DNA from: Sphingomonas sp.
GTDB taxonomy: Bacteria; Pseudomonadota; Alphaproteobacteria; Sphingomonadales; Sphingomonadaceae
Length of the DNA stretch: 64,000 nucleotides
Assembly (NCBI RefSeq): GCF_036388435.1
Contig: NZ_DASVRV010000052.1
Coordinates: forward strand, 2,886 to 66,885
Direction of reading: 5' to 3'
Shown here: positions 49,211 through 54,407 of the stretch, one piece after another
Layout: every line of letters starts with the position of its first letter
How positions within the stretch are numbered: the first letter of the stretch is position 1
Program-made: the position numbers and the translations under genes
Notes under the pieces: model-generated
Told to the model about the DNA's origin: nothing
Seen by the model: the letters and a program-made list of their open reading frames with translations, nothing else
Database searches by the model: none

Positions 49211-50356
49211 CTAGTCCGCGTGAACGACCGGGCGCTCGCCGACGATTGACAGGCCGTAGCCGTCGAGCCCGACCAATGTGTGGTGGGTGTTGGTGAGGAG
49301 GATCATCTCCTCCACGCCGAGTTCGGTCAGGATCATCGCGCCGACGCCGTAATCGCGCAATTCCTCCATGTCGGCGGCGCGTTCGCCCGCCTTGATGCGG
49401 ACGGCGGCGGTGAAGGCGTCCTGGCGGGGCTTGTTGATGACGACGATGACGCCGGCGCCCTCCTGCGCGATCAGTTCCATCGAGCGGGCGAGCAGCCCGG
49501 CGCGCTCGTCGGCCTCGCCGAACAGGTCGGCGAAGGGGTTGAGCGCGTGCATCCGCACCAATGTCGGGCGGCTGGGATCGACGCGGCCCTTGACCAGCGC
49601 CATCTGCTCGGTCCCCGCCGCCTTGTTCCAGAAGGTGATGGCGGTCCATTCGCCGCCCCAGCGGCTGGTGAAGCGCGCCTCGGCGCGGCGCTCGACGAAA
49701 TGGTCGTAGCGGCGGCGATAGGCGATCAGGTCGCGGATGGTGCCGATCTTGAGGTTGTGGAGCTGCGCGAAGGCGACGAGGTCGTCCATGCGGCTCATCG
49801 TGCCGTCCTCGTTCATGATCTCGCAGATCACGCCCGAGGGGTTGAGCCCGGCGAGGCGCGACACGTCGACCGCCGCCTCGGTATGGCCGGTGCGCACCAG
49901 CACGCCGCCGTCGCGCGCGACGAGGGGGAAGATATGGCCGGGGGTGACGATCTCGTCACGGCTCTTGGACGAGTCGATCGCCACCGCGACGGTGCGCGCG
50001 CGGTCGGCGGCCGAGATGCCCGTCGTCACCCCGTCGCGCGCCTCGATCGAGACGGTGAAGGCGGTCTCGTGGCGGGTGCCGTTGTGGCGGCTCATCAGGT
50101 CGAGCCCGAGTTCCTCGACGCGGCGCTTGGTGAGCGCCAGGCAGATCAGCCCGCGGCCGTGCCGGGCCATGAAGTTGATCTTCTCCGGCGTCGCCATCTG
50201 CGCGGGGATGACGAGGTCGCCCTCATTCTCCCGGTCCTCGTCGTCGACCAGGATGAACATGCGGCCGTTCTTGGCCTCGTCGATGATCTCCTCGGGCGAG
50301 GACAGGAAGGCGTGGCGCAGGCGGGACAGCTCGGCGCGGGGAAAGTTAGCGGCCAC
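49211..50356 (-). CDS. ribB: 3,4-dihydroxy-2-butanone-4-phosphate synthase with a C-terminal GTP cyclohydrolase II-like domain that appears degenerate
   Basis: 381 aa. The N-terminal half has DHBP synthase motifs (DDEDRENEGDLV, RTGHTEAAVD). The C-terminal half aligns to RibA but has HALNPFAD and ADERAG where RibA has HSECLTGD and RCDCG. Confidence 0.9.
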   Translation of the reverse strand: MAANFPRAELSRLRHAFLSSPEEIIDEAKNGRMFILVDDEDRENEGDLVIPAQMATPEKINFMARHGRGLICLALTKRRVEELGLDLMSRHNGTRHETAFTVSIEARDGVTTGISAADRARTVAVAIDSSKSRDEIVTPGHIFPLVARDGGVLVRTGHTEAAVDVSRLAGLNPSGVICEIMNEDGTMSRMDDLVAFAQLHNLKIGTIRDLIAYRRRYDHFVERRAEARFTSRWGGEWTAITFWNKAAGTEQMALVKGRVDPSRPTLVRMHALNPFADLFGEADERAGLLARSMELIAQEGAGVIVVINKPRQDAFTAAVRIKAGERAADMEELRDYGVGAMILTELGVEEMILLTNTHHTLVGLDGYGLSIVGERPVVHAD

Positions 50357-50963
50357 GGTGATGCTCCATGCGGCGGAGATAGCGGGCGAGCACGTCGATC
50401 TCGATGTTGACGCGGTGCCCGGGGCGCAGATCGCCCAGGGTCGTCGCCCCCTGGGTGTGCGGGATGACGTTGACCGAGAAGCGCGTGGCTTCGGGCTGAT
50501 CCTCGACGGTGTTGACCGTCAGCGACACGCCGTCGACCGTCACCGATCCCTTGGGCGCCAGAAAGGGGGCGACCTCCTCGGAGACCGCGAAGACGAGGCG
50601 CCTGGAGTCGCCGTCGGGCGTCATGTCGACCACTTCGGCGACGCCGTCGACATGGCCGGTGACGATATGGCCGCCCAGCTCGTCGCCGAGCCGCATCGCG
50701 CGTTCGAGGTTGAGGCGGCGACCCTGGGTCCACTGATCCGCCGGGGTGCGGGCGAGCGTCTCGCCCGACACGTCGACGGCGAACCAGCCCGGAGACCCAC
50801 TCGCCGCCTTATCGACGACGGTCAGGCAGACGCCGGAGCAGGCGATGGAGGCGCCCAGGTCGACGCCGTCGGTGTCATAGGCGGTGGCGATCACGACGCG
50901 CAGGTCGCCGCGCGCCTCGACGCGCGCCACGGTGCCGATGTCGGTGATGATGCCGGTGAACAT
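50346..50963 (-). CDS. ribE: Riboflavin synthase (alpha chain)
   Basis: 205 aa from MFTGIITDIGTV..., with duplicated lumazine-binding repeats (GASIACSGVCLTV / KGSVTVDGVSLTV). Confidence 0.92.
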   Translation of the reverse strand: MFTGIITDIGTVARVEARGDLRVVIATAYDTDGVDLGASIACSGVCLTVVDKAASGSPGWFAVDVSGETLARTPADQWTQGRRLNLERAMRLGDELGGHIVTGHVDGVAEVVDMTPDGDSRRLVFAVSEEVAPFLAPKGSVTVDGVSLTVNTVEDQPEATRFSVNVIPHTQGATTLGDLRPGHRVNIEIDVLARYLRRMEHHRGR

Positions 50964-51916
50964 TAGCGCCGCTCGTAGACCTCGAGCCGGTCGCTGCCAA
51001 GCGCGCGCGCGTCGTGGAGCCGCCAGCGGCCATGCGCGCCCGCCAGCTCGGTCAGGCCGATATCGCCGATCGCGGGGAGCCCGGCGCCCAAGATGATCGG
51101 TGCGCGGTAGAGGAGGAGGCGGTCGACGAGATCGGCGGCCAGGAACGCCGCCGCCGCGCCCGCGCCGCCCTCGACCAGGAGGTGATCGACGTTCGCGAGG
51201 TCGGCGACGGCATGGGGGGAGGAGATCCACAGCGGCGGGTCGTTCTCGACGCCCGGCGGCGCGCTGCTCAGCACGACCCGCCTCGGGCCGCGCGCCTCCA
51301 GCCCCGGAAGCCGCACGTCGAGTCGGGGGGCGTCGGCGTTCCAGGTGCCGCGCCCGACCAGGATCGCCTCGTGACGCGCGCGTTCGAGATGGGCATGGGC
51401 GCGGGCCTCGGGACCGGTGATCCAGCGGCTTTCGCCCGAGGAAAGCGCGATGCGGCCGTCGAGCGAGGTGGCGAGCTTGAGCGTGACATGCGGCCGGCCA
51501 CGGGTCCGACAAGTGAGGAAGCCCGCCATCGATCGCCGCGCGGCGTCGGCGCCGGGACCGACCTCCACCGCGATTCCCGCCGCACGGAGCCGGGCGAACC
51601 CCTCGCCGTTCGTGCGCGGATCGGGGTCGCCCAGCGCGGCGACGACGCGCGCGACCCCGGCCGCGATCAGCCCGTCGGCGCAGGCGGGGCCGCGTGTCGA
51701 TCGGTGCGCGCAGGGTTCGAGCGTCGTGTAGCAAGTCGCGCCGCGCGATTCGGTGCCGGCCAGACCCAGCGCCATCGCCTCGGCATGGGGGCGCCCGCCC
51801 GGTTGCGTCCAGCCGCGCCCGACCACGCGCCCGCCCGCGACGATCACGCAGCCGACGGGCGGATTGGGCGCGGTCCGGCCCCGGCCGCGCTCACCGAGCG
51901 CGATCGCCGCGCCCAT
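50963..51916 (-). CDS. ribD: Bifunctional diaminohydroxyphosphoribosylaminopyrimidine deaminase / 5-amino-6-(5-phosphoribosylamino)uracil reductase
   Basis: It has the deaminase zinc motifs HAEAMAL and PCAH...PAC, then a reductase domain. The N-terminus may extend a few codons; an in-frame CTG upstream encodes LTPNDARW. Confidence 0.9.
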   Translation of the reverse strand: MGAAIALGERGRGRTAPNPPVGCVIVAGGRVVGRGWTQPGGRPHAEAMALGLAGTESRGATCYTTLEPCAHRSTRGPACADGLIAAGVARVVAALGDPDPRTNGEGFARLRAAGIAVEVGPGADAARRSMAGFLTCRTRGRPHVTLKLATSLDGRIALSSGESRWITGPEARAHAHLERARHEAILVGRGTWNADAPRLDVRLPGLEARGPRRVVLSSAPPGVENDPPLWISSPHAVADLANVDHLLVEGGAGAAAAFLAADLVDRLLLYRAPIILGAGLPAIGDIGLTELAGAHGRWRLHDARALGSDRLEVYERR

Positions 51917-52373: not shown

Positions 52374-52988
52374 ATGCTCGAACATGTTCCCGCCTGGCTG
52401 GGCCGCACCCTGTCGCCGCTGCGCGCCGGGGTGGAGAAGCTCGCCGTGGTCGAATTGGGCGCGGGATTGCCCGAGCTGGAGCTGATGAGTCCCGCCTTCG
52501 GGCATGGCGGGCGGTTGCCGGCGCGTTTCACCGCGGATGGCGCGGGACGCTCGCCCCCGCTCGTCTGGACCGCGCCGCCCGCGGGCACGGCGCGGCTGGC
52601 GCTGCTGGTCGAGGATGCCGACGCGCCCGCGCCCCAACCGCTGGTCCATGCGGTGATCTGGGGGCTGGCGGCGGATGCGGGGCGGCTGGAGGAGGGCGCG
52701 ATCGTCGCGGACGGCGACGGCTTCGCGGGGCGCGACGTCGGGCGCAACAGCTATTTCCGCGAGGGCTGGCTGCCGCCCGATCCGCCGACCGGGCACGGCG
52801 AGCACCGCTACGCCTTTCAGCTCTTCGCGCTGGGCGCGCACGCGCCCGATCCGGGGGGGAATCCGGGTCGGGCGGCGCTGGTGGAGGCGATGCGCGGGCA
52901 TGTGCTCGCGGCGGGGCTGCTGGTCGGCACCTATTCGCGCGAGGAGCCGGCCCCGATCGGGCCGGTCGGCGCCACCGCGCGGGCCTGA
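52374..52988 (+). CDS. YbhB/YbcL family Raf-kinase-inhibitor-like (PEBP) protein
   Basis: 204 aa with the PEBP signature regions LVEDADAP and GHGEHRYAFQLFAL. Confidence 0.85.
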   Translation: MLEHVPAWLGRTLSPLRAGVEKLAVVELGAGLPELELMSPAFGHGGRLPARFTADGAGRSPPLVWTAPPAGTARLALLVEDADAPAPQPLVHAVIWGLAADAGRLEEGAIVADGDGFAGRDVGRNSYFREGWLPPDPPTGHGEHRYAFQLFALGAHAPDPGGNPGRAALVEAMRGHVLAAGLLVGTYSREEPAPIGPVGATARA

Positions 52989-52995
52989 CCGCGCT

Positions 52996-53079
52996 TCAGA
53001 CGATCGGGGGGGCGCTCATCGCGATGAGGACGGCGGTGCAGGCGAAGCCCGCGACGGCGAAGGCGAACTGACGGATCAT
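52996..53079 (-). CDS. Candidate small hydrophobic protein, 27 aa
   Basis: Below the ORF-track cutoff. Manual translation gives MIRQFAFAVAGFACTAVLIAMSAPPIV. AAGGAAAC lies 7 nt upstream of the ATG, and 26 of 27 third positions are G/C. Confidence 0.45.
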   Translation of the reverse strand: MIRQFAFAVAGFACTAVLIAMSAPPIV

Positions 53080-53107
53080 GTCTAGGTTTCCTTGCGAGCG
53101 TCGCCGA

Positions 53108-53218
53108 TCAGGCGACCGGGAGGATGGGAACGGCGGTGCCGACCGCGACCGCGGCGAAGGCGAGAGCGGCGACGAAGGAGACGACGACGCGCCGAGCGGA
53201 CTGGAAATCGATGGTCAT
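53108..53218 (-). CDS. Candidate small hydrophobic protein, 36 aa
   Basis: Below the ORF-track cutoff. Manual translation gives MTIDFQSARRVVVSFVAALAFAAVAVGTAVPILPVA. AGGAAAGGA lies about 8 nt upstream of the ATG, and 32 of 36 third positions are G/C. Confidence 0.45.
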   Translation of the reverse strand: MTIDFQSARRVVVSFVAALAFAAVAVGTAVPILPVA

Positions 53219-53235
53219 TGACTGGGTCCTTTCCT

Positions 53236-53273
53236 GGTATCCCGCGGCGCGAACCTCTCGCGCCGCCGATACC
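53236..53273 (-). promoter_or_regulatory. Strong hairpin immediately 5' of the ribosome-binding site of the 36-aa ORF
   Basis: The mRNA sense is GGUAUCGGCGGCGCGA-GAGGU-UCGCGCCGCGGGAUACC, with 9 + 6 bp arms and a small bulge. AGGAAAGGA follows directly, and no U-tract is present. Confidence 0.4.
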
Positions 53274-53399
53274 GGAAGCATTGCATCCTCCGTGCCAATT
53301 CCGAGTTTCGGCCGCGATCAAGCGGTTAGCGGCAGGGTCGTTTTCGAGTTGGGATTTCGCGCCAGAAGCGACCGTTGCGGACGCCAATTTCTGGCGGGA

Positions 53400-54407
53400 T
53401 CAGCCCGCGCAGAGCCGATCGCGGCCGGTCGACTTGGCGGTGTAGAGAAACCGGTCGGCGCGCGCGAACGCGTCTTCGAGATTTTCGCCGGGCTGCACGG
53501 CCGTCAGCCCCACCGAAACCGTGACGCGCCCGATCAGCATGTCGGTTTCGCGCGAGCGGAAGCGCTTGGCCGCGACGCTCTCGCGTGCGCGGTCGAGGAC
53601 GGCCTGCGCGCGCTGGAGGGCGATGCCCGTCAGCAGCACCGCGAACTCCTCGCCGCCGTGGCGTGCGACCAGATGGCCCTCGCAGGCGACGCGCAGCGTG
53701 TCGGCGATCGCGCTCAGCACCCGGTCGCCGACGCCGTGTCCGCAGCCGTCGTTGATGCGCTTGAACCGGTCGATGTCGCACAAGGCCAGGCAGGCGCCTC
53801 CGCGCAACGCGGCGAAGGCTTCCGCGAAGGCGCGGCGGTTGGGCAGTCCGGTGAGCACGTCGATCCGGGCGCTGGCCTGCGCCTCTTCCAGCTTGGCGCG
53901 CAGATCCTCGCTTTCGCGTGTCGCCTGTTCGAGGCGCTGCTCGGCCGCATGGACGCGCGACAGGACGGCGCCGGTGATCCGGGCGAGTTCGGCCATGCCG
54001 CCCGCCGCGCCGACCGCACCCATCGATGCCGCATGTTCGGCGAGGTCGCGGCCGAAGTCCCGCGTCTCCTCGTGCATCGCGCGCGCGACCCGCGCGAGAT
54101 CCTCGACCCGCAACCGGGTCTCGTCGACAAGATGATTGGTCGGCGCGGCGGCCTTGTCGGGCGAGGCGGCGACCACGGTGCCGCCGAGCTTCTCGATGTC
54201 GGCGCGGCTGATCCGGACGCCGTCGTCGGTGATCCGGGCCACCGCCTCGGCAAGCGCGCCCGACGGATTGCTGAGCACGTCATAGGCGAAGTGATAATGG
54301 GCCGGCTCGGGGCTCAGCCGGTGTTCGAGCAGGAACGCGCCGACGCGGGCGAACAGATCGTCCCCCGCGCCATTCGTCCGCCCGTCCCGCGCCAGCGCGC
54401 CCCGCAT
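53400..54407 (-). CDS. Diguanylate cyclase (GGDEF domain) with coiled-coil-rich N-terminal region
   Basis: 335 aa with DVLTGLPNRRAF, the active-site GGEEF and the RxxD-like context. No TM segment is evident. Confidence 0.9.
   Translation of the reverse strand: MRGALARDGRTNGAGDDLFARVGAFLLEHRLSPEPAHYHFAYDVLSNPSGALAEAVARITDDGVRISRADIEKLGGTVVAASPDKAAAPTNHLVDETRLRVEDLARVARAMHEETRDFGRDLAEHAASMGAVGAAGGMAELARITGAVLSRVHAAEQRLEQATRESEDLRAKLEEAQASARIDVLTGLPNRRAFAEAFAALRGGACLALCDIDRFKRINDGCGHGVGDRVLSAIADTLRVACEGHLVARHGGEEFAVLLTGIALQRAQAVLDRARESVAAKRFRSRETDMLIGRVTVSVGLTAVQPGENLEDAFARADRFLYTAKSTGRDRLCAG

What the first reader, a model, noticed from the sequence alone, without database searches (positions are those of the whole stretch)
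52996..53400. Two tandem tiny hydrophobic ORFs (36 and 27 aa) with strong RBSs behind a long structured leader, downstream of a diguanylate cyclase
Seen: both ORFs were missed by the ORF track because they fall below its size cutoff. The first is MTIDFQSARRVVVSFVAALAFAAVAVGTAVPILPVA (53218-53108), and the second is MIRQFAFAVAGFACTAVLIAMSAPPIV (53079-52996). They are 28 nt apart and each is preceded by a strong Shine-Dalgarno (AGGAAAGGA, AAGGAAAC). Their third-position G/C counts, 32/36 and 26/27, are typical of real genes here. Both look like a lone signal peptide or single TM helix ending in a Pro-rich tip. They follow the GGDEF gene on the same strand after a 181-nt spacer, which contains a 15-bp bulged hairpin (53236-53273) abutting the first RBS. 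Known: small hydrophobic proteins of this size include type I toxins and regulatory or accessory subunits of membrane complexes. They are systematically under-annotated. Inference: this is a paralogous pair of membrane micro-proteins, possibly co-regulated with c-di-GMP signalling, or a type I toxin-like module with a 5' structure controlling translation. I recognise no family.
Basis: partly seen in the sequence, partly recalled or inferred. Interest (0 to 1): 0.65.

Follow-up and report, generated by a model that had tools for sequence, protein, structure and literature searches.

The report
Stress-regulated membrane micro-protein operon
The two tiny ORFs are real, conserved single-helix membrane micro-protein genes of Sphingomonas that have their own sigma-54 promoter with a phage-shock (PspF)-type enhancer, so they are probably unrecognised members of the membrane-stress response and not an appendage of the neighbouring c-di-GMP gene.

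Summary
ORF1 (36 aa) is conserved in about 60 Sphingomonas loci. It belongs to a stand-alone family of 136 clusters (50% identity) with no Pfam or NCBIfam model. ORF2 (27-31 aa) follows it in 49 of 59 loci. Both show coding-type codon periodicity. They are not detectably paralogous.

The 181-nt "leader" is a complete enhancer-dependent promoter:
- an invariant sigma-54 -24/-12 element, TGGCACG-N5-TGCAA
- two upstream repeats of the form TGGCG..ATTT..CCAAC
- an IHF-like AT-rich spacer

A matrix built from these repeats finds the known E. coli PspF sites. It scores 14-22 bits upstream of sORF-pspA-pspC operons of related Sphingomonadaceae. In Sphingobium the ORF1 homologue sits directly before a PspC-domain gene.

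A CU-rich anti-Shine-Dalgarno stretch lies just upstream of the predicted start site and covaries with the ORF1 ribosome-binding site. Read-through transcripts from the GGDEF gene should therefore be translationally silent.

Best reading: an orphan Psp-type envelope-stress operon encoding two new membrane micro-proteins. A type I toxin and c-di-GMP co-regulation are not supported. Not shown: pspF or pspA in this genome, the start site, expression, and biochemical function.

The parts
53400..54407 (-). Upstream neighbour: a 335-aa GGDEF diguanylate cyclase. This is context, not part of the unit. Its stop codon lies 13 nt from the first enhancer repeat, with no terminator in between.
   Evidence: Pfam GGDEF E = 3.7e-34. 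The terminator scan found none. The block AsmA / inositol monophosphatase / AhpC-TSA / GGDEF / ORF1 is syntenic across Sphingomonas.
53390..53410 (-). Possible distal enhancer site, palindromic and read on the opposite strand, overlapping the GGDEF stop codon.
   Evidence: The matrix scores 10.2 bits at -113 from TGGCAC, which is 44 nt (two repeat spacings) from the proximal site.
53372..53387 (-). Enhancer repeat A (TTGGCGTCCGCAACGG). It is degenerate in this window. Its consensus in relatives is TTGGCG.aATtTgC.
   Evidence: It sits at a fixed position, 89-90 nt upstream of TGGCAC, in relatives. It scores below 5 bits in the window itself.
53346..53366 (-). Enhancer repeat B (TCTGGCGCGAAATCCCAACTC), a PspF-type upstream activating site.
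   Evidence: It scores 18.9 bits at -69. A TGGYG match at this site was found in 39 of the 58 loci listed, always 66-68 nt upstream of TGGCAC. The same matrix finds the E. coli pspA UAS I and II, the pspG UAS, and psp operons of Sphingomonadaceae. The background rate for scores of 14 bits or more is 2e-5 per position.
53316..53328 (+). IHF-like site (GATCAAGCGGTTA, one mismatch to WATCAANNNNTTR) in the spacer between enhancer and promoter. It is weak in this window.
   Evidence: 56% of loci have one mismatch or none, against 5% of shuffles, mostly at one fixed position. The spacer is 55% A+T against 33% for the loci as a whole.
53282..53297 (-). Sigma-54 promoter TGGCACGGAGGATGCA, with GG at 53296-53295 and GC at 53284-53283. 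The predicted start site is near 53271.
   Evidence: It is the only match in the window. TGGCA and TGC are invariant (2.0 bits per position) in 61 distinct loci, 70-82 nt before the ORF1 ATG.
53274..53278 (-). CU-rich anti-Shine-Dalgarno stretch (CUUCC). UUCC (53277-53274) pairs with GGAA (53234-53231) of the ORF1 ribosome-binding site. It lies upstream of the predicted +1, so it is present only in read-through RNA.
   Evidence: The SD is at least 60% paired in 50 of 56 loci when the RNA starts at -11, and in 10 of 56 when it starts at +1. Duplex energy with the locus's own partner is -8.10 kcal/mol, against -5.66 +/- 0.31 for permuted partners; 0 of 20000 permutations were as low.
53236..53273 (-). 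Stem-loop at the 5' end of the predicted transcript. The conserved ATCGG lies in its 5' arm.
   Evidence: It folds at -25.2 kcal/mol, z = -3.2. A hairpin at the same place appears in all 54 sequences folded, with different stem sequences. The core pair varies GC/AU in 12 of 40 sequences.
53227..53235 (-). Shine-Dalgarno sequence of ORF1 (AGGAAAGGA).
   Evidence: An SD-like motif is present upstream of ORF1 in 59 of 59 loci.
53108..53218 (-). ORF1: a 36-aa single-pass membrane micro-protein. It has an N-terminal R/R region, a helix at residues 5-29, and the C-terminal tail P-x-x-P-[IV]-A.
   Evidence: It is conserved in about 60 loci. It matches 109 database proteins and 136 clusters at 50% identity, all tiny, with the match always at the C-terminus. 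AlphaFold gives a helix at 5-29 with pLDDT 83. Codon periodicity p = 5e-5.
53086..53093 (-). Shine-Dalgarno sequence of ORF2 (AAGGAAAC).
   Evidence: An SD-like motif is present upstream of ORF2 in 45 of 49 loci.
52996..53079 (-). ORF2: a 27-aa single-pass membrane micro-protein. The family consensus is MxRSxxxGLxAFxxTxLLI.
   Evidence: It is present 5-53 nt after ORF1 in 49 of 59 loci. It is absent in 10, including the closest relative L001. Codon periodicity p = 0.003.
52374..52988 (+). Convergent downstream neighbour: a PEBP/YbhB-family protein. This is context only. Its stop lies 8 nt from the ORF2 stop.
   Evidence: Pfam PBP E = 2.1e-31. The downstream neighbour differs among relatives: PEBP, an esterase, or YetF.

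Best explanation
The region 53410-52996 (minus strand) is an autonomous two-gene operon.

How it is transcribed and translated:
- It is transcribed by sigma-54 RNA polymerase from TGGCACG-N5-TGCA (53297-53282).
- Transcription is activated from upstream repeats of the type bound by the psp-operon activator PspF. An AT-rich, IHF-like spacer lies between the repeats and the promoter.
- The transcript should begin at about 53271, at the foot of a stable 5' stem-loop. This leaves the ORF1 ribosome-binding site free.
- RNA that reads through from the GGDEF gene also carries the CU-rich anti-SD (53278-53274). This extends the stem over the ribosome-binding site and should block translation.

What it encodes:
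- Two unrelated single-helix inner-membrane micro-proteins, predicted to lie N-in/C-out.
- ORF1 is the core gene and ORF2 is an accessory gene.
- I infer that they are made when the inner membrane is stressed. I infer that they act within the membrane as effectors or modulators of the phage-shock response, through helix-helix contacts with each other or with PspC-type proteins.

Shown:
- The genes are real.
- The promoter, enhancer and leader architecture is conserved.
- That architecture is shared with psp operons.

Inferred:
- The identity of the activator.
- The transcription start site.
- The insulation of read-through RNA.
- The stress induction.
- The molecular role of the proteins.
For: Real genes:
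- ORF1 and ORF2 are conserved downstream of the orthologous GGDEF gene across Sphingomonas.
- Start, stop and SD positions are fixed.
- Codon periodicity p = 5e-5 and 0.003, and half of single-base codon changes are synonymous.
- The ORF1 family comprises 136 stand-alone clusters.
- ORF1 is predicted to form a helix at residues 5-29.

Sigma-54 promoter:
- It is invariant in 61 distinct loci at a fixed distance from ORF1.
- The enhancer repeats sit at fixed positions, -67 and -90.
- An IHF-like site is enriched, 56% against 5% in shuffles.

Link to Psp:
- In Sphingobium the same promoter drives the ORF1 homologue followed by a 61-aa PspC-domain gene.
- A metagenome scan with the enhancer-plus-promoter pattern gave 18 hits. 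They include sORF-pspA-pspC operons (L089, L097), a pspF/pspA divergent pair (L106), a Toastrack locus (L101) and further ORF1 loci.
- The matrix built only from ORF1 loci scores 14-22 bits, at matching positions, upstream of four independent psp operons. The background rate is 2e-5 per position.
- The same matrix picks out the E. coli pspA UAS I and II and the pspG UAS.
- In E. coli, PspF binds two UAS at pspA and one at the orphan pspG, with help from IHF (PMC3709507, PMC9239133).
- The psp operons of relatives start with a 45-aa hydrophobic sORF weakly similar to ORF1: hhalign P = 2.7e-4, and 7-13 bits against shuffles. They share the same +1 CATCGG/hairpin/anti-SD leader.

Anti-SD:
-. The concept was described for sigma-54 promoters in bioRxiv 10.1101/086108.
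Against: - No pspF, pspA or rpoN could be shown in the window's own genome. None lies in the 64 kb or in the 13-kb loci.
- The matches to the E. coli PspF sites are modest (8-9 bits). Several higher-scoring chance hits occur in the 3.5-kb and 7-kb test regions.
- Enhancer repeat A and the IHF-like site are weak in this particular window.
- Homology between ORF1 and the psp-operon sORF is only suggestive (probability 42%).
- The start site is predicted from the -12 element and was not mapped. If transcription started a few bases earlier, the anti-SD would be part of the native mRNA.
- dN/dS is only moderately low (about 0.5-0.6).
- There are no expression or protein data.
Confidence: 0.6

Rival explanations
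1. The promoter is sigma-54-dependent but is served by a different enhancer-binding protein, for example NtrC, a TacA-like activator or a c-di-GMP-responsive FleQ-like activator. The micro-proteins would then belong functionally with the adjacent diguanylate cyclase.
For: GGDEF-ORF1 synteny is conserved through the genus. In Caulobacter, c-di-GMP activates the ShkA-TacA sigma-54 pathway (PMC7010744). The activator was not identified in this genome.
Against: The enhancer matrix matches psp operons and the E. coli PspF sites. The pattern scan returned psp, Toastrack and ORF1 loci, with no nitrogen or flagellar genes. The Sphingobium homologue has lost the GGDEF neighbour but kept the promoter, and is paired with pspC. 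The anti-SD argues for uncoupling from upstream transcription.
Confidence: 0.15
2. The ORFs are 3' cistrons of the GGDEF transcript. The structured spacer is a translational control leader in that mRNA.
For: There is no terminator between the GGDEF stop and ORF1. The genes are on the same strand. The long form of the RNA folds stably with the SD paired.
Against: An invariant sigma-54 promoter plus enhancer occupies the spacer. In the long RNA the SD is occluded, so read-through RNA should be poorly translated. Homologous cassettes exist without any GGDEF gene.
Confidence: 0.1
3. This is a type I toxin-antitoxin-like module. One or both peptides would be membrane-depolarising toxins, held in check by RNA structure or by an antisense RNA.
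For: The peptides are small and hydrophobic. The 5' UTR is structured and has an SD-sequestering helix.
Against: - The locus is single-copy and lies in conserved core-genome synteny.
- There is no Rfam RNA, promoter-like site or terminator-like site on the opposite strand.
- The ORF1-ORF2 spacer and the 3' flank vary in length and sequence.
- The promoter needs an enhancer-bound activator.
- PADLOC and PHROGs gave no hits.
- ORF1 homologues head psp-type operons.
Confidence: 0.07
4. The conserved element is a non-coding RNA or a purely regulatory DNA region, and the ORFs are incidental open frames in GC-rich DNA.
For: In this GC-rich DNA several alternative frames also stay open over these short stretches.
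Against: Variation is three-periodic, with position 2 the most constrained. ATG, stop and SD are conserved, and ORF1 lengths are limited to 33-37 aa across loci. Conservation is at the amino-acid level, with half of single-base codon changes synonymous. Rfam gave nothing.
Confidence: 0.04

Closest known systems
E. coli pspG, the orphan PspF/sigma-54-dependent gene for a small inner-membrane Psp effector
   Same: It is a stand-alone locus away from pspA. It has a sigma-54 promoter with a PspF UAS and an IHF-assisted architecture. It encodes a small integral membrane protein (PMC3709507, PMC9239133; sequence).
   Different: PspG is 80 aa and has its own Pfam family. ORF1 and ORF2 are 36 and 27 aa and match no family. 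This locus has two cistrons, two enhancer repeats and a promoter-embedded anti-SD.
E. coli pspABCDE promoter region (UAS I, UAS II, IHF site, sigma-54 promoter)
   Same: There are two enhancer repeats about 20-23 bp apart, an AT-rich IHF-type spacer, and a -24/-12 promoter. The repeat sequences are related: TGGCGAATTT / AATTCGCCAC against TGGCG..ATTT..CCAAC.
   Different: The enhancer sits about one helical turn closer to the promoter here. The -12 element is the canonical TGCA rather than TTGT. The first gene is a micro-protein, not pspA.
sORF-pspA-pspC-76-aa operons of Sphingomicrobium and related Sphingomonadaceae
   Same: These operons have the same enhancer matrix hits, sigma-54 promoter, +1 CATCGG/CATGG motif, 5' hairpin and, in some, the anti-SD. 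They also start with a small hydrophobic ORF of the shape M..R..(hydrophobic)..VGAAV.P.
   Different: Their sORF is 43-45 aa, has an extra AQA-x-AAP-x-V-x-NA tail, overlaps pspA, and is only weakly similar to ORF1. The window's operon carries ORF2 instead of pspA/pspC.
CT-rich insulator motifs inside sigma-54 promoters (Levy et al., bioRxiv 10.1101/086108)
   Same: A short CU-rich stretch within the promoter is complementary to the downstream SD. It is predicted to silence translation of read-through transcripts only.
   Different: The reported motifs lie within 25 bp of the SD. Here the anti-SD is about 40-50 nt away and is brought next to the SD by an intervening hairpin. Support here comes from natural covariation, not from reporter assays.
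Type I toxins (e.g. TisB, Hok, Ibs)
   Same: Small size, a single hydrophobic helix, and a structured 5' UTR that can hide the SD.
   Different: No antisense RNA gene was found. The locus is conserved, single-copy and syntenic, and it uses enhancer-dependent transcription.

Membership tests
Sigma-54-dependent promoter | GG and GC doublets exactly 10 nt apart in a TGGCAC-N5-TTGCW context | tested here: met
   TGGCACGGAGGATGCA lies at 53297-53282. These positions are invariant in 61 distinct loci.
Sigma-54-dependent promoter | Upstream enhancer sites for an activator, usually with a DNA-bending site in between | tested here: met
   The repeats sit at fixed positions, -67 and -90. An IHF-like site is found in 56% of loci against 5% of shuffles, and the spacer is AT-rich.
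Sigma-54-dependent promoter | rpoN present in the genome, and a start site about 12 nt downstream of the GC | not testable with these tools
   There is no rpoN or GAFTGA-type activator in the window or the loci held. The whole genome was not available, and there are no transcript data.
PspF (phage-shock) regulon | Enhancer sequence of the kind bound by PspF | tested here: met
   The matrix from ORF1 loci recovers the E. coli pspA UAS I and II (9.4 and 9.2 bits; in shuffles of the UAS region the maximum reached this value in 0.4% of trials) and the pspG UAS (8.3 bits). It scores 14-22 bits upstream of four psp operons and 19 bits next to a pspF gene.
PspF (phage-shock) regulon | Physical linkage of homologues to psp genes | tested here: met
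   In Sphingobium the ORF1 homologue is followed by a PspC-domain gene. An ORF1-like sORF heads pspA-pspC operons.
PspF (phage-shock) regulon | pspF and pspA present in the same genome | not tested
Psp genes are reported in the related Zymomonas (PMC8645129) and in some Alphaproteobacteria (PMC11237479).
PspF (phage-shock) regulon | Induction by inner-membrane or proton-motive-force stress, dependent on PspF | not testable with these tools
   This needs experiments.
Known small Psp proteins (PspB, PspD, PspG, LiaI) | Sequence membership in their Pfam/NCBIfam families | tested here: not met
   ORF1 and ORF2 have no significant Pfam or NCBIfam hit. The only weak hit, DUF7472, is below its cut-off.
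Type I toxin-antitoxin | Cis- or nearby-encoded antisense RNA with its own promoter | tested here: inconclusive
   There is no promoter-like or terminator-like site and no Rfam hit on either strand. There are no conserved blocks outside the ORFs and the promoter. The absence of a consensus match is not proof.
Type I toxin-antitoxin | Patchy or multicopy genomic distribution | tested here: not met
   There is one copy in the window (logic), and it keeps the same synteny across the genus.
Promoter-embedded anti-SD insulator | A CU-rich motif within the sigma-54 promoter that is complementary to the downstream SD | tested here: met
   50 of 56 loci, and 0 of 20000 permutations.
Promoter-embedded anti-SD insulator | Motif within 25 bp upstream of the SD | tested here: not met
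   The distance here is about 40-50 nt, bridged by the inner hairpin.
c-di-GMP riboswitch or other known leader RNA | Match to an Rfam covariance model | tested here: not met
   Only two chance-level hits, with E about 7.
Paralogous gene pair (ORF1/ORF2) | Detectable sequence or profile similarity | tested here: not met
   hhalign gives probability 1.9% over 12 columns. The ORF2 consensus scores no better than shuffles against the ORF1 HMM.

The most novel reading that the evidence does not exclude
ORF1 and the 45-aa sORF that heads psp operons in Sphingomonadaceae are one ancient family of "cargo-less signal-peptide-like" micro-proteins. They would form a previously unknown, dedicated component of the phage-shock signalling machinery, for example a stress-induced ligand or decoy for PspC/PspB or for the secretion and signal-peptidase apparatus. 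Their sigma-54 promoters would have evolved a built-in anti-SD, so that only activator-driven transcripts are translated.
Probability: 0.25. Interest if true: 0.7.

Novelty: new variant of a known kind. Interest (0 to 1): 0.6.

Why it matters
- The PspF regulon has been characterised essentially only in enterobacteria, where pspG is the only target outside the psp operon (PMC9239133). This locus points to a PspF-type regulon in Sphingomonadaceae.
- The locus adds two micro-protein families that no database models, plus a third found at the head of psp operons. These are concrete, testable candidates for new players in membrane-stress sensing or repair.
- It gives a natural, covariation-supported example of a promoter-embedded anti-SD that separates an enhancer-dependent operon from an upstream gene. 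That mechanism has so far been supported mainly by synthetic libraries.
- On the practical side, annotation pipelines miss ORF2 almost entirely and often over-extend ORF1.

Tried and rejected
- Rfam search of 52500-53900 found only chance hits.
- The sigma-70 promoter and intrinsic terminator scans found nothing.
I worked around this with a concatenated ORF1+ORF2 alignment.
- RNAalifold on a MAFFT alignment of the leader recovered only a 4-bp core, because indels misalign the stems. I replaced it with per-sequence folding and a partner-permutation test.
- NtrC and TacA as the activator were considered from the literature. They were dropped when the pattern scan returned psp loci. The paper with TacA ChIP data was not held.
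- A search for an activator or rpoN in the window and loci found none.
- I tried to get organism names for PspA hits, but no names were on record.
- PHROGs and PADLOC gave nothing.
- "Open in all species" was tried as a coding test, but it is uninformative in GC-rich DNA because several frames stay open.
- RiPP precursor was considered because one relative (L083) has PqqD, sulfotransferase and kinase genes nearby. It was rejected because that cluster is absent from the other loci.
- A leader peptide for a downstream gene was rejected. The next gene is convergent and differs among relatives.
Full report
**Observation.** The window is GC-rich (about 72%) Sphingomonas-like DNA. On the minus strand, ORF1 (53218-53108, 36 aa) and ORF2 (53079-52996, 27 aa) are exactly as described.
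- They are 28 nt apart.
- Each is preceded by a purine-rich Shine-Dalgarno sequence.
- G/C at third codon positions is 32/36 and 26/27, like the flanking genes.
- They lie in a 411-nt gap between two convergent genes: a GGDEF diguanylate cyclase (53400-54407, minus) and a PEBP/YbhB-family gene (52374-52988, plus).
- The hairpin at 53273-53236 folds at -25.2 kcal/mol.
- The ORF finder reports a 57-aa version of ORF1 starting at 53281. Relatives show that this extension is not conserved.

**Are they genes?** I fetched 80 loci around orthologues of the GGDEF protein.
- About 60 Sphingomonas loci carry an ORF1 homologue about 180-200 nt downstream. It is 33-37 aa long, with the consensus M-x-x-R-F-x-x-A-Q-R-x-A-x-S-x-V-G-A-L-x-F-A-A-x-A-V-x-x-A-x-P-x-x-P-I-A. 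The stop codon always comes directly after that alanine.
- ORF2-like peptides (consensus MxRSxxxGLxAFxxTxLLI, mostly 28 aa) follow 5-53 nt later in 49 of 59 loci. They are absent in 10, including the closest relative.
- Nucleotide variation is three-periodic. For ORF1, entropy at codon positions 1/2/3 is 0.90/0.50/0.98 (permutation p = 5e-5). For ORF2 it is 1.03/0.77/1.12 (p = 0.003).
- Half of all single-base codon differences are synonymous. Pooled pN/pS is 0.6-0.7, and median dN/dS is about 0.5-0.6.
- A profile search of 5.8 billion proteins found 109 relatives. All are tiny, and where they have a name it is only "hypothetical protein". None has a Pfam domain.
- An exhaustive HMMER search of 1.84 billion representatives found 136 clusters. 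The match always lies at the C-terminus of a 33-96-aa call and is never embedded in a larger protein.
- Pfam, NCBIfam, PHROGs and PADLOC have no model for either peptide.
- AlphaFold predicts one helix for ORF1 (residues 5-29, pLDDT 83) and a non-helical proline-rich tail.
- ORF1 and ORF2 are not detectably related to each other (hhalign probability 1.9%).

**The spacer is a promoter, not a leader.** I aligned the 230 nt upstream of ORF1 from 59 distinct loci. Outside the GGDEF coding end, the only invariant block is AAAC-TGGCACG-N5-TGCAA, a textbook sigma-54 -24/-12 element. It lies 70-82 nt before the ATG. In the window it is TGGCACGGAGGATGCA at 53297-53282, the only such match in 64 kb.
- Two repeats lie upstream at rigid positions, 66-68 nt and 89-91 nt from TGGCAC. 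Their combined consensus is ..TGGCG.aaTtT.CCA...
- The spacer between repeats and promoter is 55% A+T, against 33% for the loci as a whole.
- That spacer carries a WATCAANNNNTTR (IHF-type) match with at most one mismatch in 56% of loci, against 5% of shuffles, mostly at one position.
- In this window the proximal repeat is strong (18.9 bits). The distal repeat and the IHF-like site are weak.

**Which regulon?** Three independent lines point to the phage-shock (Psp) response.
- *Sphingobium sp. AP50.* Here the ORF1 homologue keeps the same promoter and hairpin, has no GGDEF neighbour, and is followed by a 61-aa PspC-domain protein.
- *The metagenome scan.* I scanned the metagenome collection with a pattern for two enhancer repeats plus the promoter, designed to exclude most ORF1 loci. 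It gave 18 matches.
  - Two are sORF-pspA-pspC operons (L089, L097).
  - One is a divergent pspF/pspA pair whose PspF is 58% identical to E. coli PspF (L106).
  - One is a membrane protein followed by a Toastrack (DUF4097) protein, a known Psp/Lia partner domain (L101).
  - Four are ORF1 or ORF1-like loci.
  - Six are intragenic chance hits, and the other four lead other or unclear genes.
- *The weight matrix.* A matrix built only from the ORF1 loci scores 14-22 bits at -60 to -106 upstream of four independent psp operons. The background rate for 14 bits or more is 2e-5 per position.
  - In E. coli it picks out the two known PspF sites of pspA (9.4 and 9.2 bits, 20 nt apart; in shuffles of the UAS region the maximum reached this value in 0.4% of trials) and the single site of pspG (8.3 bits).
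  - The E. coli architecture is two UAS at pspA, one at the orphan pspG, and assistance by IHF (PMC3709507). [quoted passage not shown]

**Psp operons of relatives start with a similar micro-protein.** In Sphingomicrobium and related metagenomic genomes the operon reads: DUF3297 | small gene (opposite strand) | sigma-54 promoter | 43-45-aa hydrophobic sORF | PspA | PspC | 76-aa protein.
- The 76-aa protein has one N-terminal helix and a coiled-coil tail. Pfam does not recognise it as PspB.
- The sORF family has about 1500 database members and no family model.
- It is weakly similar to ORF1: 7-13 bits against the ORF1 HMM, reached by at most 1 of 200 composition-matched shuffles, and hhalign P = 2.7e-4 with probability 42%.
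- An intermediate 49-aa peptide (L095) scores 22.7 bits.
- The psp leaders also share the +1 CATCGG/CATGG motif, the 5' hairpin and, in several, the anti-SD.
- The ORF1 operon therefore looks like a duplicated "promoter plus first gene" cassette of the psp operon. That is an inference.
- In Zymomonas, a related genus, a small gene annotated pspD (ZMO1062) directly precedes pspA-pspB-pspC and is co-induced with them (PMC8645129). I could not inspect its sequence.

**The structured leader.** Every leader folds into a stem-loop that starts at the predicted +1, which lies 12 nt after the C of the -12 GC. The stem sequences differ between clades. The more informative finding concerns the 9-11 nt between the -12 element and +1.
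- This stretch is CU-rich and complementary to the ORF1 ribosome-binding site. Examples are CCUUUGG/CCAAAGG, UCCCU/AGGGA, UUCGAU/AUCGAA, and in the window UUCC (53277-53274) with GGAA (53234-53231).
- If the RNA is folded from -11, the SD is at least 60% paired in 50 of 56 distinct loci. If it is folded from +1, this holds in only 10 of 56.
- Each locus's anti-SD fits its own SD better than those of other loci: -8.10 against -5.66 +/- 0.31 kcal/mol, with 0 of 20000 permutations as low. That is covariation.
- No terminator separates the GGDEF stop from the enhancer, so read-through RNA is expected. Such RNA carries the anti-SD and should be translationally silent. Sigma-54-initiated RNA lacks it.
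- This matches the "insulation" by CT-rich motifs reported for sigma-54 promoters (bioRxiv 10.1101/086108). Here, however, the motif is 40-50 nt from the SD and is brought close by the hairpin.
- The conclusion depends on the predicted start site.

**Mechanism proposed.**
- Membrane stress releases the PspF-type activator.
- The activator binds the repeats at about 53346-53387, and possibly 53390-53410.
- With DNA bending, it activates sigma-54 polymerase at 53297-53282.
- The resulting mRNA carries a protective 5' hairpin and a free ribosome-binding site, and it yields ORF1 and ORF2.
- These insert as single helices. The arginines near the N-terminus predict an N-in topology.
- They act within the membrane as Psp effectors or modulators.

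The genes, the conserved promoter/enhancer/leader design and its sharing with psp operons are shown. The activator's identity, the start site, the insulation, the induction and the proteins' role are inferred.

**What argues against.**
- I could not show pspF, pspA or rpoN in this organism.
- The matches to the E. coli sites are modest, and chance hits of similar score occur.
- The homology between ORF1 and the psp sORF is not established.
- ORF2 is dispensable in several lineages.
- No transcript or protein data exist.

**Rivals.**
- A different sigma-54 activator tied to c-di-GMP signalling (0.15).
- Simple co-transcription with the GGDEF gene (0.10).
- A type I toxin-like module (0.07).
- A non-coding element with incidental ORFs (0.04).

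**Verdict.**
- The locus is best described as an orphan, Psp-type, sigma-54-dependent operon for two new membrane micro-protein families, with a promoter-embedded anti-SD.
- It is a new variant of a known kind of system.
- It is moderately to highly interesting for the envelope-stress, small-protein and sigma-54 fields.

Noticed in passing
L108:9871-10008, L109:9877-10008, L111:9025-9162, L112:9871-10008, L114:2822-2959: A 43-45-aa hydrophobic sORF (consensus MSxQSxxTRTLVAAAAALxMSTVAVGAAVGPAQAxAAPxQVSxNA) heads pspA-pspC operons in Sphingomicrobium-like genomes and overlaps the pspA start by 8 nt. It has about 1500 database relatives, all named "hypothetical", and no Pfam or NCBIfam model.
   Followed up: partly
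L089:2121-2354; L108:11191-11421: The last gene of these psp operons encodes a 76-77-aa protein with an N-terminal helix and a coiled-coil tail, which is PspB-like architecture. Pfam and NCBIfam do not recognise it as PspB.
   Followed up: partly
L101:12875-14190: A PspF-type enhancer plus sigma-54 promoter precedes a 134-aa multi-pass membrane protein with no Pfam family. A secreted Toastrack (DUF4097) protein follows it. This is a possible further Psp-regulon unit in a 57% GC organism.
   Followed up: partly
L098:3007-3720: The same enhancer and promoter pattern precedes two tandem small secreted proteins (84 and 86 aa), each with a conserved Cys pair. Their function is unknown.
   Followed up: no
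L001:6856-6990 versus L002:6534-6651: The closest relative of the window (GGDEF 78% identical) has lost ORF2 entirely. The next closest keeps it at 96% identity. ORF2 loss is therefore recent and recurrent (10 of 59 loci).
   Followed up: partly
window 53108-53281: Public protein collections hold both the 36-aa ORF1 and a 57-aa over-extended call of the same gene. Many relatives are likewise recorded with spurious N-terminal extensions that run through the sigma-54 promoter.
   Followed up: yes
L107:2034-2056 (E. coli pspA 5' UTR): The E. coli pspA leader also begins with a small hairpin (GUUCAG...CUGAAC) just downstream of the sigma-54 promoter. This resembles the 5'-terminal stem-loop seen here.
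   Followed up: partly
L083:1-1779: One relative carries an HPr-kinase-like gene, a sulfotransferase, PqqD and a 32-aa ORF a few kb upstream of its GGDEF gene. This looks like a lasso-peptide/RiPP cluster and is not conserved in other loci.
   Followed up: no
window 49211-51916: Riboflavin biosynthesis genes (ribBA-like at 49211-50356, a riboflavin synthase-like C-terminal part of the 50346-51734 ORF, and ribD-like at 50963-51916) lie on the minus strand just downstream of the PEBP gene region. No RFN/FMN riboswitch was searched for.
   Followed up: no
L081:4803-4985 and L111:8806-8913: Further very small called genes (60 aa and 35 aa) lie on the opposite strand, immediately upstream of the sigma-54 promoters of the Sphingobium ORF1-pspC unit and of one psp operon. 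They were not examined.
   Followed up: no
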